From positions 270,516 through 294,515 of the forward strand of contig NC_013511.1 of assembly GCF_000085865.1 (NCBI RefSeq): a DNA stretch of 24,000 nt. The letters run 5' to 3'. Positions 1 through 5,246 of this stretch are shown one piece after another; position 1 is the first letter of the stretch, and every line of letters starts with the position of its first letter. The position numbers and the translations under genes were made by a program. This DNA is from Metamycoplasma hominis ATCC 23114. Lineage in GTDB: Bacteria > Bacillota_I > Bacilli_A > Mycoplasmatales > Metamycoplasmataceae. Under the pieces are notes generated by a model, which saw only the letters and a list, made by a program, of their open reading frames with translations, ran no database searches and was not told where the DNA came from.

Positions 1-3000
1 TTAATTGTTAGATGAAATAATTTTTACCTTTGTTTTGTCTATACCAGTATTTTCTCATTTTATATTACTTGCATCACCTTTATAAATTACTTCTTTAAGG
101 TTTGCGCAATCAGAAAACGCTCTTTCGCCAATTTCTTTTACCGAACCAGGAATAGTAATAGATTCAATGTTTGTATTTGAAAATGCCTCAGCGCCAATTT
201 TTTCAAGACCTTCATTTAAAATTACTTCTTTAAGGTTTTCGCACCAAGAAAACGCTCTTTCGCCAATTTCTTTTACTGTACCAGGAATAGTAATAGATTC
301 AATTTTTGTATGATTAAATGCCCCAGTGCTAATTTTTTCAAGACCTTCATTTAAAATTACTTCTTTAAGGTTTTCGCACCAAGAAAACGCTCTTTCGCCA
401 ATTTCTTTTACTGTACCAGGAATAGTAATAGATTTAATGTTTGGATTTGAAAATGCCTCAGCGCCAATTTTTTCAAGACCTTCATTTAAAATTACTTCTT
501 CAAGGTTTTTGCAACCAGAAAACGCTCTTCCGCCAATTTCTTTTACTGAACCAGGAATAGTAACTTTTGTGGTTTTTTTATCCAAATATGCTAATATCTT
601 TTTATTATTTTTATCAATAAAAAAGTTATCTTTAATTTCAAAATTTTTATTATTTGAATTAATTAAAATATTTGAAATTATTGAATAATTAAATGCCCAA
701 TCGTCTATTTCTTTTACCGAACCAGGAATAGTAATAGATTCAATGTTTGTATTTGAAAATGCATATCAGCCAATTCCTTCAAGGCCTTCATTTAAAATTG
801 CTTCTTTAAGGTTTAGGCAATCAGAAAACGCATATAAGCCAATTTCTTTTACTGAACTAGGAATAGTAATAGATTCAATGTTTGTATTTGAAAATGCATA
901 TCAGCCAATTCCTTCAAGGCCTTCATTTAAAATTGCTTCTTTAAGGTTTAGGCAATCATAAAACGCTCTTTCGCCAATTTCTTTTACTGAACCAGGAATA
1001 GTAATAGATTCAATTTTTGTTTTATAAAATGCCTCAGCACCAATTTTTTCAAGACCTTCATTTAAAATTACTTTCTTAAGGTTTTCGCAACCATAAAACG
1101 CACTTTCACCAATTTTTTTTACTGTACCAGGAATAGTAATAGATTCAATTTTTGTATCTGAAAAAGCACTTTCACCAATTTTTTCAAGACCTTCATTTAA
1201 AATTACTTCTTTAAGGTTTGTGCAACCATTAAACGCATAATCGCCAATTTCTTTTACTGAACCAGGAATAGTAATAGATTCAATTTTTGTATTTCAAAAT
1301 GCACAAGCGCCAATTTTTTCAAGACCTTCATTTAAAATTGCTTCTTTAAGGTTTAGGCAATCATAAAACGCTCTTTCGCCAATTTCTTTTACCGAACCAG
1401 GAATAGTAATAGATTCAATGTTTTTACCAGCAAATGCCTCAGCGCCAATTTTTTCAAGACCTTCATTTAAAATTACTTCTTTAAGGCTTTCGCACCAAGA
1501 AAACGCATATTTGTCAATTTCTTTTATTGAACCAGGAATAGTAATAGATTCAATGTTTGTATTTGAAAATGCATATCAGCCAATTCCTTCAAGGCCTTCA
1601 TTTAAAATTACTTCTTTAAGGTTTGTGCAACCATTAAACGCATCTTCGCCAATTTCTTTTACTGAACCGGGAATAGTAATAGATTCAATTTTTGTATTGC
1701 TAAATGCCCAAGCGCCAATTTTTTCAAGACCTTTATTCAAAATTACTTCTTTAAGGTTTTTGCAACCATAAAACGCTCATTCGCCAATTTCTTTTACTGA
1801 ACCGGGAATAGTAACTTTTGTGGCCTTTTCATCCAAATATGCTAATATTTTTTTATTATTTTTATCAATAAAAAAGTTATCTTTAATTTCGAAATTTTTA
1901 TTATTTGAATTAATTGAAATATGTGAAATTCTTGAAAAATCAAATGCCCTGACGCCAATTTCTTTTACTGAACCAGGAATAGTAATAGATTCAATGTTTG
2001 TATCTAAAAATGCCTTAGCGCCAATTTTTTCAAGACCTTCATTTAAAATTACTTCTTTAAGGTTTGTGCAACCAGAAAATGCACTTTCGCCAATTTCTTT
2101 TACTGTATCAGGAATAGTAATAGATTCAATGTTTGTATCTGAAAATGCAAAAGCGCCAATTTTTTCAAGACCTTCATTTAAAATTACTTTCTTAAGGTTT
2201 TTGCAACCAGAAAACGCACCTGCGCCAATTTCTTTTACTGAACCAGGAATAGTAATAGATTCAATTTTTGGATTATTAATTAACCCAGCAAATGCCGCAT
2301 AGCCAATTTTTTCAAGACCTTTATTTAAAATTACTTCTTTAAGGTTTTCGCAACCATAAAACGCTCATTCGCCAATTTCTTTTACTGAACCAGGAATAGT
2401 AATAGATTCAATTTTTGTTTTATAAAATGCCTCAGCACCAATTTTTTCAAGACCTTTATTTAAAATTACTTCTTTAAGGTTTGGGCACCAAGAAAACGCT
2501 CTTTCATCAATTTCTTTTACTGATCCAGGAATAGTAACTTTTGTGGCCTTTTTATCCAAATATGCTAATATCTTTTTATTATTTTTATCAATAAAAAAGT
2601 TATCTTTAATTTCAAAATTTTTATTATTTGAATTAATTGAAATATGTGAAATTATTGAAAAATCAAATGCCCAAGCGCCAATTTTTTCAAGACCTTCATT
2701 TAAAATTACTTCATGAAGGTCTCCGTGGCCTAAAAACGCACCTTCGCCAATTTCTTTTATTGAACTAGGAATAGTAACTTTTGTGGCCATTCAATCCAAA
2801 TATGATAATATTTTTTTATTATTTTTATCAATAAAAAAGTTATCTTTAATTTCAAAATTTTTATTATTTGAATTAATTAAAATAAGTGTAGTCATTCAAA
2901 AATCAAATGCTCAATTGCCAATTTCCTTTACTGAACCAGGAATAGTAATAATTCCAATTTTTGTATATCTAAATGCTTCAACGCCAATTTTTTCAAGACC

Positions 3001-5160
3001 TTCATTTAAAATTGCTTCATTAAGGTTTGTGCAACCATGAAACGCTCTTTCGCCAATTTCTTTTACTGAACTAGGAATAGTAATAGATTCAATGTTTGTT
3101 TTATAAAATGCCTCAGCACCAATTTTTTCAAGACCTTCATTTAAAGTTACTTCTTTAAGGTTTTCGCAACCAGAAAATGCACCTTCACCAATTTCTTTTA
3201 CTGAACTAGGAATAGTAACTTTTGTGGCCTTTTTATCCAAATATGATAATATTTTTTTATTATTTTTGTCAATAAAAAAGTTATCTTCAATTTCAAAATT
3301 TTTATTATTTGAATTAATTGAAATATGTGAAATGTCTGAAAAATGAAATGCACCAGCGCCAATTTTTTCAAGACCTTCATTTAAAATTACTTCTTTAAGG
3401 TTTTCGCAACCAGAAAATGCACCTTCACCAATTTCTTTTATTGAACTAGGAATAGTAACTTTTGTGGCCTTTTTATCCAAATATGATAATATTTTTTTAT
3501 TATTTTTGTCAATAAAAAAGTTATCTTCAATTTCAAAATTTTTATTATTTGAATTAATTGAAATATCTGAAATCATTGAAAAATCAAATGCTCAATTGCC
3601 TATTTCTTTTACTGTATCAGGAATAGTAATAGATTTAATGTTTGTATTTGAAAATGCCCGAGCGCCAATTTTTTCAAGACCTTCATTTAAAATTACTTCT
3701 TTAAGGATTTTGCAATCAGAAAACGCACTTTCGCCAATTTCTTTTACTGAACTAGGAATAGTAACTTTTGTGGCCTTTTTATCCAAATATGATAATATTT
3801 TTTTATTATTTTTATCAATAAAAAAGTTATCTTTAATTTCAAAATTTTTATTATTTGAATTAATTGAAATATCTGAAATCATTGAAAAATCAAATGATCA
3901 ATTGCCTATTTCTTTTACTGTATCAGGAATAGTAATAGATTTAATGTTTGTACGATCAAATGCCCGAGCGCCAATTTTTTCAAGACCTTCATTTAAAGTT
4001 ACTTCTTTAAGGTTTTCACATCTAAAAAATGCACCAGCGCCAATTTCTTTTATTGAACCAGGAATAGTAATAGATTCAATTTTTTTATCAGCAAATGCAC
4101 TTTCGCCAATTTTTTCAAGACCTTCATTTAAAGTTACTTTCTTAAGGTTTTTGCAACCAGAAAATGTACTTTTGTCAATTGCTTTTATTGAACCAGGAAT
4201 AGTAATAGATTCAATGTTTGTGCTTGAAAATGCACAAGCGCCAATTTTTTCAAGACCTTCATTTAAAGTTACTTTCTTAAGGTTTTCGCAACCAGAAAAT
4301 GTACTTTTGTCAATTTCTTTTATTGAACCAGGAATAGTAATAGATTCAATGTTTGTGCTTGAAAATGCACCAGCGCCAATTTTTTCAAGACCTTCATTTA
4401 AAATTACTTCTTCAAGGCTATGGCAACCAGAAAATGTACTTTTACCAATTTCTTTTACTGAACCAGGAACAGTAATAGATTTAATGTTTGTATTTAAAAA
4501 TGCCTCAGCGCCAATTTTTTCAAGACCTTCATTTAAAATTACTTCTTCAAGGTTTTCACAACCAGAAAACGTACTTTTACCAATTTCTTTTACTGAACTA
4601 GGAATAGTAATAGATTTAATGTTTGTATATTTAAATGCCTCAGCGCCAATTTTTTCAAGACCTTCATTTAAAATTACTTCTTTAATGTTTCTACAACCAG
4701 AAAACGCACCTTCGCCAATTTCTTTTACTGAACCCGCAATAGTAACCGATTGAATAACACTATTAAAAAAAGCATGATTATCAATTTCTGTAATATTTTT
4801 GCCTTGATATTCCTTAGGAATTGTTACTTTAGAATCATTTCCAATAAATTCTGTAATTTTTCAAGTATTTGATTTAGTTAGTTCGAATTTAAATTTTTTA
4901 TTTAAATTTGATGAATCTTCTTCTTTGGTAGGATTTTCTGGTTTAGGTTTATTTTCATCAGGTTTTGAATCTTCTTCTTTTGTAGGATTTTCTGGTTTAG
5001 AATTTGGTTTATTTTCATCAGGCTTTAAATCTTCTTTGTTTTCTTTTGAATTTTGTTTTACTCCATAATCACAAGAAATAGTTGCTAATGGAAGTATAGT
5101 AGTTAATGCTGAAATACTACTTAATATAAGTCATATCTTAATATTTTTTTTATTTTTCAT
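1..5160 (-). CDS. Giant surface lipoprotein built of BspA-type (LRR_5 / TpLRR-like) leucine-rich repeats; 1719 aa with TGA read as Trp
   Basis: ATG at 5160-5158 and TAA at 3-1. I checked every + strand frame-1 triplet across the gaps between the track's minus-strand fragments (55-585, 2365-2790, 2911-3576, 3592-3882) and from 3883 to 5160. No tta/cta (TAA/TAG) occurs, only tca (TGA). All four fragments are in frame with 5160. The N-terminus is MKNKKNIKIWLILSSISALTTILPLATISC|DYG, which is a signal peptide plus lipobox Cys. A K/P/E/N-rich linker follows, then dozens of repeats of the type TIPGSVKEIGERAFSGCENLKEVILNEGLEKIGAEAFSNTNIESI. Confidence 0.85.
60..4740 (-). repeat. Tandem coding repeat array with a basic 135/138-nt unit (45-46 aa, equal to two LRRs)
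   Basis: The strings ccaggaatagtaatagattcaat and gccaattttttcaagaccttcatttaaaattacttctttaaggtt recur along the whole interval. Examples are 745-823 vs 883-961 (period 138) and 4126-4260 vs 4261-4395 (period 135). Confidence 0.9.
3121..3566 (-). repeat. Near-perfect 240-bp tandem duplication inside the LRR gene
   Basis: Line-by-line comparison shows that 3121-3326 and 3361-3566 differ at only 2 positions over about 206 bp. A similar 240-bp pair lies at 2521-2640 vs 2761-2880, and a 306-bp pair at 3539-3660 vs 3845-3966. Confidence 0.85.
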
Positions 5161-5229: not shown

Positions 5230-5246
5230 AAAAAAAAAAAAAAAAA
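5230..5246 (-). promoter_or_regulatory. Homopolymer A17 on + (T17 on the coding strand), 70-86 nt upstream of the LRR lipoprotein ATG; candidate slipped-strand expression switch
   Basis: Direct count gives a at 5230, ten a at 5231-5240 and six a at 5241-5246, followed by c at 5247. The tract lies in the 5' untranslated/promoter region of the gene starting at 5160. Confidence 0.45.

What the first reader, a model, noticed from the sequence alone, without database searches (positions are those of the whole stretch)
575..3966. The LRR protein is a concatenation of modules, each opening with a conserved motif, with near-identical DNA duplications
A roughly 38-aa motif, I(S/L)INSNNKNFEI(K/E)DNFFIDKNNKKIL(S/A)YLD(K/E)K(A/T)TKVTIP, occurs seven times, with one copy degenerated to YLDWMATKV. 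Its DNA core tttttattatttgaatt starts at 644, 1895, 2618, 2858, 3299, 3539 and 3845. The spacings of 1251, 723, 240, 441, 240 and 306 nt are all multiples of 3. In stand-alone BspA-like proteins an equivalent segment sits at the start of the LRR domain. The gene therefore looks like eight LRR cassettes fused head to tail. Some cassette pairs are almost identical at the DNA level (3121-3326 vs 3361-3566 differ at 2 positions), which implies recent duplication or gene conversion. These pairs are ideal substrates for RecA-dependent or slippage-driven expansion and contraction, which would produce size variation of a surface antigen.
Basis: seen in the sequence. Interest (0 to 1): 0.6.

Follow-up and report, generated by a model that had tools for sequence, protein, structure and literature searches.

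The report
Size-variable LRR lipoprotein of M. hominis
A 5.2-kb Mycoplasma hominis gene encodes a surface lipoprotein made of about 60 leucine-rich repeats, and comparing strains shows whole repeats and whole genes of this family being gained, lost and overwritten; this is a familiar way for a mycoplasma to vary a surface protein, and I found no paper describing it for this gene family.

Summary
The 17-mer core occurs at exactly the seven stated sites (0.01 expected by chance), and 3121-3326 and 3361-3566 differ at 2 bases.

The gene (1-5160, minus strand, TGA=Trp) is the only BspA-type (Pfam LRR_5) lipoprotein gene of M. hominis PG21. It encodes 1719 aa. The basic unit is a 45-aa pair of LRRs (135 nt). 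The 35-aa motif is an irregular LRR that carries a beta-hairpin.

The motif does not open a domain. It lies in mid-domain in solved structures 4h09 and 4gt6. An AlphaFold model runs as one rigid solenoid through three copies. A 597-aa paralog has no copy. The gene holds no internal signal peptide, linker or tail remnants. So it grew by internal duplication and gene conversion, not by fusion of cassettes.

The predicted size variation is real. Family members in other strains range from 385 to 2246 aa, and the ftsZ-rsmE interval holds one to four tandem genes. Near-clonal isolates differ only by:
- an exact 135-nt duplication;
- a 69-nt deletion;
- a 13-site conversion patch copied from 405 nt upstream;
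- the length of an upstream poly(T) tract (15-24).

Verdict: a new member of a known kind, of moderate interest. Another report of this scan had already noted the poly(T) tract.

The parts
1..5160 (-). Complete CDS of a 1719-aa BspA-type LRR lipoprotein (table 4, 14 TGA=Trp; stop at 1-3).
   Evidence: ORF list and translation. Pfam LRR_5 E=0, 1875.6 bits, 20 stretches. It is the only strong family member in the 665,445-bp genome.
5071..5160 (-). Signal peptide with a lipobox ending in Cys30 (..LATISC).
   Evidence: Translation. The same N-terminus is seen in most family members retrieved from other strains; two carry a different signal peptide.
4906..5070 (-). Pro/Lys/Glu-rich linker with about 2.2 copies of a 54-nt repeat (TRF coordinates 4912-5036).
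   Evidence: TRF. Linker repeat number differs between otherwise identical alleles: a 17-aa unit is present or absent.
4756..4905 (-). N-terminal cap of the LRR domain (..FKFELTKSNTWKITEF..KVTIP..).
   Evidence: Translation. Occurs once only in the protein. Similarity to the X motif is not significant.
100..4755 (-). LRR array: 26 regular 45-aa pairs (a = 23 aa with ITIPGSVKEIG..AF..C; b = 22 aa with LKEVILNEGLEKIG..AF), extra a units, and 7 X units.
   Evidence: Period 135 nt. Unit alignment with 9 hypervariable columns. Architecture string.
3766..3870 (-). X1, a 35-aa irregular LRR with a hairpin (aa 431-465).
   Evidence: The AlphaFold2 model shows its LRR strand plus three extra strands.
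3460..3564 (-). X2 (aa 533-567).
   Evidence: Clusters with X1 in the cassette tree, a duplication specific to the PG21 allele.
3220..3324 (-). X3 (aa 613-647), preceded by a b unit.
   Evidence: Lies inside the 208-nt tract that differs at 2 bases from the X2 tract.
2779..2883 (-). X4 (aa 760-794), the copy with YLDWMATK.
   Evidence: In a related allele (P0137) two copies carry WMATK.
2539..2643 (-). X5 (aa 840-874), preceded by a b unit.
1816..1920 (-). X6 (aa 1081-1115).
565..669 (-). X7 (aa 1498-1532).
   Evidence: Lies within the 417-aa block that the related allele P0137 lacks.
3119..3566 (-). Most recent duplication or conversion tract: 3119-3326 vs 3359-3566, 208 nt, 2 mismatches, offset 240.
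3428..3952 (-). Second near-identical pair: 3428-3646 vs 3734-3952, 219 nt, 4 mismatches, offset 306.
   Evidence: TRF period 306, 93% matches.
1..99 (-). C-terminal tail (..YKGDASNIKWENTGIDKTKVKIISSNN) and stop codon; the tail is shared by the whole family.
5230..5246 (-). Poly(T)17 tract, 70-86 nt upstream of the ATG; a candidate slippage-prone expression switch.
   Evidence: Tract lengths are 15, 16, 17, 17, 20, 20, 22 and 24 in eight copies of the locus with otherwise conserved flanks. A weak promoter-like site lies just downstream at 5216-5187 and is not above chance.

Best explanation
The gene encodes one long, continuous BspA-type (LRR_5) solenoid anchored to the M. hominis membrane as a lipoprotein. 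It grew, and keeps changing, by unequal homologous recombination or slippage and by gene conversion among its own 135-nt double-LRR units and its 240- and 306-nt super-units (units that include the hairpin-bearing X repeat). The X motif is an integral irregular LRR, not a domain boundary or a fusion scar. The scaffold is kept uniform down to the codon, while about nine surface positions per 45-aa unit diversify. In the species, the ftsZ-rsmE interval is a hypervariable locus with one to four tandem paralogs of 385-2246 aa. PG21 carries a single long mosaic gene there. Shown here: the repeat architecture, the fold, the whole-unit indels between alleles, and the conversion patch between near-clonal isolates. 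Inferred, not shown: surface exposure, an adhesin or ligand-binding role, immune-evasion value, on/off control by the upstream poly(T) tract, and RecA dependence.
For: Architecture and chance. Family: Pfam LRR_5 E=0; Foldseek best hits are PcpA 4cp6, 4gt6 and 4h09. The motif lies inside single solved domains, and the AlphaFold2 model has pLDDT 88.8 and pTM 0.82 across three motifs. X-like motifs recur deep inside other large LRR_5 proteins: 37 of 116 have at least one and 23 have at least two. There are no internal signal, linker or tail remnants. Same locus in other strains: mraZ-rsmH-355aa-ftsZ upstream and rsmE-rplM-rpsI downstream. Alleles that are 100% identical in aligned residues differ only by a 45-aa unit or a 17-aa linker unit. 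L009 vs L010 over 11 kb differ only in poly(T) length, one SNP and an exact 135-nt tandem duplicate. Across 21 kb of L010-L013, outside the LRR genes only the poly(T) tract upstream of the first LRR gene and one single-base ftsZ deletion differ. Inside the LRR genes there is a 69-nt deletion and a 13-site patch in which one version equals the copy 405 nt upstream at 13 of 13 sites. The PG21-like allele P0137 has 10 mismatches over 840 aa but lacks 417 aa. Invariant residues use one codon in 23-26 of 26 units, third-position identity (0.85) exceeds first-plus-second-position identity (0.816), and pN/pS is 1.25. The cassette tree shows positional orthology between two strains plus PG21-specific duplicates X1/X2/X4. 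recA is present.
Against: The inter-isolate differences rest on public draft assemblies whose sequencing technology I could not check. Repeat collapse or expansion, polishing errors and homopolymer miscalls could mimic some differences; one of these assemblies also has a single-base deletion that splits ftsZ. Most units are only 82-91% identical, so much of the array is old and may be stable. Expression, lipidation and surface location are not shown. The pN/pS of 2.0 for the hypervariable columns is circular, because those columns were chosen for amino-acid variability; only the overall 1.25 is unbiased.
Confidence: 0.8

Rival explanations
1. Gene fusion or array collapse. The PG21 gene is long because recombination between adjacent paralogs of an ancestral multi-gene array deleted the intervening tails, intergenic DNA and signal peptides, joining formerly separate LRR genes. 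This is the nearest tenable version of the first reader's 'cassettes fused head to tail'.
For: PG21 has one gene between ftsZ and rsmE, where isolates L010-L013 have four (998, 430, 733/710 and 597 aa) and another strain has at least two. The PG21 5' end is mosaic. The poly(T)-bearing upstream region, the first 120 nt (99%) and the tail (97%) resemble gene 1 of the array. The linker, N-cap and first LRRs resemble genes 2 and 4 (up to 97%).
Against: The interior is only 82-93% identical to any gene of the sampled arrays, so no parental segments can be assigned. No fusion scars are present. The X motifs cannot be the junctions, because they occur within single solved domains and within the short paralogs. 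The tail is gene-1-like, not gene-4-like as a simple deletion would give. This reading is compatible with the best explanation and adds to it; it does not replace it.
Confidence: 0.3
2. Static repeat protein. The repeats are an old structural feature. The strain differences accumulated slowly, and there is no ongoing high-frequency size or phase variation.
For: Mean unit identity is 83%. Cassettes pair by position between two strains, which implies long persistence. Only five tracts of at least 100 nt are near-identical.
Against: Isolates with zero substitutions in about 15 kb of flanking DNA differ by whole-unit indels, a conversion patch and poly(T) length. Uniform synonymous codons argue for continuing homogenisation.
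Confidence: 0.15
3. Assembly artefact. The near-identical copies in the window were created by mis-assembly of a repetitive region.
For: Repeats of 135-306 nt with 95-99% identity are hard to assemble, and no reads could be examined.
Against: The frame is open over 5160 nt, with every unit in register. The genome is the finished 665,445-bp PG21 chromosome. An independent allele from other assemblies (P0137, 9 member sequences) reproduces residues 427-1266 with the same order of units and motifs and only 10 substitutions.
Confidence: 0.04

Closest known systems
BspA-like surface protein family of 'Candidatus Mycoplasma girerdii' (26-28 genes; PMC4206474, PMC5476646, PMC9239101)
   Same: A mycoplasma of the same urogenital and Trichomonas-associated niche. 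BspA/TpLRR-type LRR surface proteins modelled on PcpA. A variable gene set between strains. Simple-sequence repeats near or in the genes that vary in length within a population, read as phase variation.
   Different: There the family is many dispersed genes switched by dinucleotide repeats that cause frameshifts. Here one locus holds 1-4 tandem genes, with an upstream poly(T) tract and with size variation by whole LRR units. The best non-hominis matches in the family are only 38-46% identical.
Size- and phase-variable surface proteins of M. hominis (Vaa, Lmp family, P120)
   Same: Same species. Surface proteins with in-frame repeats whose number differs between strains. Pereyre et al. 2009 suggest that such size variation may contribute to genome-size heterogeneity (PMC2751442).
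   Different: The repeats are unrelated: coiled-coil or other modules there, a BspA-type LRR solenoid here. Vaa switches through a poly(A) tract in the coding region (my own knowledge). The PG21 genome paper does not mention LRR or this gene.
Solved BspA-type LRR_5 proteins: pneumococcal PcpA (4cp6), FAEPRAA2165_01021 (4gt6), EUBVEN_01088 (4h09), T. pallidum TpLRR (6mlx)
   Same: Same fold and the same alternating IP..V..IG..AF repeat. 4h09 and 4gt6 contain the same N.N(F/Y)....(L/F)(Y/I)..(K/N)....L..Y(P/L) hairpin insert inside the domain.
   Different: Those are single domains of about 200-400 residues with one insert. This protein has about 60 repeats and seven inserts. Sequence identity is about 20% and TM-score about 0.5, partly because of different curvature.
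M. hyorhinis Vlp lipoproteins (promoter poly(A) tract plus in-frame tandem repeats)
   Same: The combination of a homopolymer near the promoter and a variable number of in-frame coding repeats in a lipoprotein gene cluster.
   Different: In vlp the tract lies between the -35 and -10 elements and the repeats are short and low-complexity. Here the tract lies upstream of the only promoter-like site and the repeats are folded LRRs. No effect on expression has been tested.
Tannerella forsythia BspA / Treponema denticola LrrA / GBS HupY-LrrG adhesins
   Same: The same Pfam family. A cell-surface adhesin role is the functional inference borrowed here. NCBIfam HupY/LrrG gives 611 bits.
   Different: The HupY score is far below the equivalog cut-off of 1250, so this is not an ortholog. 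No binding data exist for the M. hominis protein.

Membership tests
Pfam PF13306 LRR_5 (BspA-type leucine-rich repeat) | Profile score above the gathering threshold. | tested here: met
   1875.6 bits against a cut-off of 27.7, in 20 stretches.
Pfam PF13306 LRR_5 (BspA-type leucine-rich repeat) | BspA/TpLRR solenoid fold. | tested here: met
   AlphaFold2 model with pLDDT 88.8 and pTM 0.82. Top Foldseek hits are 4cp6, 4gt6, 4h09, 4fs7 and 6mlx, E from 4e-13 to 6e-6.
Bacterial (mollicute) lipoprotein | N-terminal signal peptide with a lipobox cysteine. | tested here: met
   A basic n-region, a hydrophobic core and ..LATISC with Cys30. Most family members retrieved share this N-terminus. Seen in sequence only.
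Bacterial (mollicute) lipoprotein | Acylation and surface exposure. | not testable with these tools
   Needs Triton X-114 partitioning, palmitate labelling or surface proteolysis.
Size-variable mycoplasma surface antigens (Vaa/Lmp/Vlp/Vsa kind) | In-frame tandem coding repeats whose number differs between strains. | tested here: met
   Whole-unit indels of 45, 23, 17 and 417 aa between alleles; family lengths 385-2246 aa.
Size-variable mycoplasma surface antigens (Vaa/Lmp/Vlp/Vsa kind) | Variation arising at high frequency within a clonal lineage. | tested here: inconclusive
   Near-clonal public isolates differ only in the repeats and the poly(T) tract. Their relationship and assembly accuracy could not be checked, and reads were unavailable.
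Phase-variable contingency locus (homopolymer switch) | A hypermutable simple-sequence tract in or near the promoter or CDS. | tested here: met
   Poly(T) of 15-24 in eight copies of the locus with conserved flanks.
Phase-variable contingency locus (homopolymer switch) | Tract length changes expression. | not testable with these tools
   Only one weak promoter-like site was found, not above chance. No RNA data.
NCBIfam NF047961 adhesin HupY/LrrG (equivalog) | Score above the curated cut-off. | tested here: not met
   611.4 bits against a cut-off of 1250.
NCBIfam NF045861 gliding protein Gli349 | Score above the curated cut-off. | tested here: not met
   546.3 bits against a cut-off of 1750; the match is to a repeat region only.

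The most novel reading that the evidence does not exclude
The ftsZ-rsmE locus of M. hominis could be a dedicated diversity generator for an LRR binding surface. Gene conversion and unequal exchange among units within and between 1-4 tandem genes would shuffle about nine hypervariable, aromatic-rich positions per unit on a codon-uniform scaffold, and a poly(T) switch would gate the first gene. It would work somewhat like a bacterial counterpart of cassette-assembled LRR receptors. Its purpose would be to vary adhesion specificity (host epithelium, or the Trichomonas vaginalis host cell, which itself carries hundreds of BspA-like genes) as well as antigenicity.
Probability: 0.15. Interest if true: 0.7.

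Novelty: new member of a known kind. Interest (0 to 1): 0.4.

Why it matters
M. hominis is an opportunistic urogenital pathogen and a symbiont of Trichomonas vaginalis. Its known variable antigens are Vaa, Lmp and P120. None of the papers I could search describes a BspA-type LRR lipoprotein locus in this species, although NCBI names the proteins generically.

This work shows that the species carries a hypervariable locus of 1-4 such genes, with products of 385-2246 aa, that changes by whole-repeat indels and conversion even between near-clonal isolates. That gives three things:
- a candidate adhesin and antigenic-variation system to test;
- a useful typing target;
- a warning that this region is unreliable in short-read assemblies.

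It also corrects the reading of the conserved 35-aa motif. It is an internal hairpin-bearing LRR found across the LRR_5 family, not a marker of a domain start.

Tried and rejected
No reads could be laid, and neither within-strain heterogeneity nor RNA evidence could be tested.
- The genome search on the handles of the strain loci failed because the records are not held. I obtained strain context through the look-up of encoding contigs instead.
- The locus of the PG21-like allele P0137 is not on record, so that comparison is at protein level only.
- A blastn self-comparison returned only one HSP because of culling. I replaced it with an ungapped offset scan.
- I tested whether the protein's own N-cap is a diverged copy of the X motif. 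The local alignment score was 26 against a shuffle mean of 23.3, with 293 of 1000 shuffles as high, so the idea is rejected as unsupported.
- I looked for an exact donor of the 13-site patch anywhere in the 21-kb locus. No full-length exact copy exists, but the copy 405 nt upstream matches at all 13 sites in two tracts.
- Painting the PG21 gene with the four genes of another strain gave no clean parental blocks in the interior.
- The coiled-coil repeat insert of allele P0002 has no counterpart in PG21 and no Pfam family.
- I rejected HupY/LrrG and Gli349 membership; both scores are below the cut-offs.
- A literature search by assembly accession found nothing.


Full report
**Identity of the sequence**

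The window has about 26% G+C. It reads as long ORFs only with TGA=Trp. It lies in a single 665,445-bp contig, which is exactly the size published for Mycoplasma (Metamycoplasma) hominis PG21. The closest database proteins are all named Metamycoplasma hominis.

The finding sits in one ORF, 1-5160 on the minus strand, 1719 aa. From the N-terminus the protein has:
- a lipoprotein signal peptide ending in ..LATISC (Cys30);
- a Pro/Lys/Glu linker with a 54-nt repeat;
- an N-cap;
- a very long BspA-type LRR array (Pfam LRR_5, E=0, 20 stretches);
- a 32-aa tail.

The flanks are mraZ-rsmH-(355 aa)-ftsZ upstream and rsmE-rplM-rpsI-rpsO downstream.

**Checking the observation**

The 17-mer core is at the seven stated positions and nowhere else, against 0.01 expected. 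All seven sites encode the stated motif, and the fourth has YLDWMATK. 3121-3326 and 3361-3566 differ at two bases.

An ungapped scan of all offsets found five tracts of at least 100 nt with 0-4 mismatches. Their offsets are 135, 240 or 306 nt. A sixth tract, at offset 546, overlaps the two longest. The remaining units are 82-91% identical.

The period is 135 nt, or 45 aa: an 'a' LRR of 23 aa (ITIPGSVKEIG..AF..C.N) plus a 'b' LRR of 22 aa (LKEVILNEGLEKIG..AF....). The motif (X, 35 aa) begins with its own LRR strand (ISIN), followed by a longer insert. X+a+b is 240 nt and X+a+b+a' is 306 nt. That the spacings are multiples of three follows trivially from one ORF.

**What the motif is**

A sequence search of solved structures aligned the motif to the middle of single LRR_5 domains. 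In 4h09 the aligned stretch reads ..SSNNKNYVAENYVLYNKNKTILESYP..TEFTIP.. In 4gt6 it reads ..SESYPAIDNVLYEK..YALIRYP..FKIP..

An AlphaFold2 model of residues 381-700, which hold three X units, has mean pLDDT 88.8 and pTM 0.82. It shows a regular strand about every 22 residues. Each X adds three short strands between its own LRR strand and the next. The best Foldseek matches are PcpA (4cp6), 4gt6 and 4h09.

A loose pattern for the motif hits 37 of 116 large LRR_5 proteins from other bacteria. In 23 of them it hits twice or more, at positions deep in the chains. Within M. hominis, a 430-aa paralog has its single X after 3.5 a-b pairs, and a 597-aa paralog has none.

The PG21 protein contains the signal peptide, N-cap motifs and tail motifs only once each. 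Its N-cap is not significantly similar to X. So X is an integral, hairpin-bearing irregular LRR. It is neither a domain start nor a fusion scar.

**How the array evolves**

Twelve invariant residue columns use a single codon in 23-26 of 26 units, for example CTT for Leu33 in all 26. Third-position identity (0.85) exceeds first-plus-second-position identity (0.816). Overall pN/pS between units is 1.25.

Amino-acid variation is concentrated in nine columns just after the IG and AF dipeptides, and these are rich in W, Y and R. This pattern fits a scaffold homogenised by recombination, with diversification of surface positions. The per-column pN/pS of 2.0 is circular and I give it no weight.

In a tree of 29 X cassettes, the six cassettes of the first gene pair by position between two strains, which indicates old cassettes. 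PG21 X1, X2 and X4 cluster together, which indicates lineage-specific duplication. A separate clade holds the cassettes preceded by a b unit.

**Other strains**

Proteins from other M. hominis genomes mostly share the signal peptide, and all share the tail. Their lengths are 385, 430, 498, 518, 539, 597, 614, 708, 710, 733, 760, 779, 780, 821, 878, 912, 981, 992, 998, 1043 and 2246 aa, with 0-6 X units; the 518- and 878-aa entries lack the N-terminal signal peptide and look truncated.

Synteny was verified for the loci I could fetch. In four isolates the ftsZ-rsmE interval holds four tandem paralogs (998, 430, 733 or 710, and 597 aa). One strain has at least three. Another has an LRR gene of at least 1686 aa plus the 2246-aa gene. 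PG21 has one.

Alleles that are 100% identical in aligned residues differ only by a 45-aa a-b unit or a 17-aa linker unit. At the DNA level, L009 and L010 differ over 11 kb only by poly(T) length, one SNP in the first LRR gene and an exact 135-nt tandem duplicate.

L010-L013 show no difference in 21 kb outside the LRR genes, except the poly(T) length and a single-base ftsZ deletion in one isolate. Inside the LRR genes they differ by one or two SNPs, a 69-nt (one LRR) deletion and a 13-site patch in 140 nt. In that patch one version equals the copy 405 nt upstream at 13 of 13 sites. That is the signature of a patchy intragenic gene conversion.

A PG21-like allele (P0137) has 10 substitutions over 840 aligned residues but lacks PG21 residues 1267-1683. 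It also carries the WMATK variant in two X units instead of one. P0137 also independently reproduces the unit order in the region of the near-identical copies, which argues against an assembly artefact.

**Origin of the long PG21 allele**

Painting the gene with the four genes of another strain shows the following:
- a gene-1-type upstream region, first 120 nt (99%) and tail (97%);
- a gene-2/4-type linker, N-cap and first LRRs (up to 97%);
- an interior that is 82-93% identical to everything.

Exchange between paralogs has clearly occurred. Collapse of an array into one gene is possible; I give it about 0.3. It cannot be reconstructed from the sampled strains.

**Upstream switch**

A poly(T)17 tract lies 70-86 nt upstream of the ATG. 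Its length is 15, 16, 17, 17, 20, 20, 22 and 24 in eight copies of the locus, including isolates whose first-gene product is identical. The downstream paralogs have a different upstream region with only T7-T8 runs.

Only one weak promoter-like site lies just downstream of the tract, and it is not above chance. Homopolymer lengths in draft assemblies can be miscalled, so this is a lead and not a result.

**Function**

The sequence shows a lipoprotein signal and a BspA-type LRR solenoid. By analogy with BspA, LrrA, PcpA and HupY/LrrG, a surface adhesin or ligand-binding role is the most likely function. Size, sequence and possibly phase variation would then serve immune evasion or changes in binding. 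This is inference.

The protein is not an ortholog of HupY or Gli349; both scores are far below the cut-offs. LRR_5 proteins occur in 45 of 121 sampled genomes of the family, but the best non-hominis matches are 38-46% identical. recA is present, so homologous recombination is available. RecA dependence is untested.

**Comparison with what is known, and novelty**

Size-variable repeat lipoproteins and homopolymer switches are classic in mycoplasmas. A variable, phase-switching BspA-like family has been described in 'Ca. M. girerdii'. I found no paper describing this locus in M. hominis. It is a new member of a known kind.

**Limits**

No reads were available. The inter-isolate evidence depends on public assemblies. 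Not all of the listed proteins were placed on the chromosome, so some length classes are paralogs and not alleles.

Noticed in passing
window 5230-5246 (minus strand poly(T)17): A homopolymer 70-86 nt upstream of the LRR gene start. Its length is 15-24 in eight copies of the locus from other strains, including isolates with an identical gene product. It is a candidate expression switch. Another follow-up of this scan (e1-2468672) had already noted it.
   Followed up: yes
L010:6307-16376 (also L011, L012, L013): In other M. hominis isolates the ftsZ-rsmE interval holds four tandem paralogous LRR lipoprotein genes (998, 430, 733/710 and 597 aa) with the same signal peptide and tail. PG21 has a single gene there.
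   Followed up: yes
L006:4001-10741 (protein P0002, residues about 80-1180): One strain's 2246-aa family member carries about 1100 aa of roughly 115-aa coiled-coil-like repeats inserted between the linker and the LRR domain. The insert has no counterpart in the PG21 genome and no Pfam family. The gene upstream of it (at least 1686 aa) is also an LRR_5 protein.
   Followed up: partly
proteins P0149 and P0151 (other M. hominis strains): Two LRR family members carry a different signal peptide ending in PLVAAGC. This is the conserved lipobox that Pereyre et al. 2009 reported for five unrelated PG21 lipoproteins. It suggests modular exchange of signal-peptide cassettes between lipoprotein genes.
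   Followed up: no
L012:5512 (ftsZ; also L005): A single-base deletion splits ftsZ into ORFs of 221 and 144 aa in one near-clonal isolate. It is either a sequencing error, which would warn about indel accuracy in these assemblies, or a real ftsZ frameshift.
   Followed up: no
window 4912-5036: A 54-nt repeat (2.2 copies) encodes the Pro/Lys/Glu linker. In other alleles a 17-aa linker unit varies in copy number independently of the LRR units.
   Followed up: partly
window 1113-1120: A T8 run on the plus strand (A8 in the coding strand) inside one repeat unit (VKKIGE instead of VKEIGE), flagged by another first-reader note (e1-2468673) as a possible frameshift hotspot. It lies within the 417-aa block absent from allele P0137. 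No evidence of frameshifting was sought.
   Followed up: no
G000:C1:588043-588345: The only other LRR-like match in the PG21 genome: weak (E 4.7e-12, 39% identity over about 100 aa), in a 230-aa open frame.
   Followed up: no
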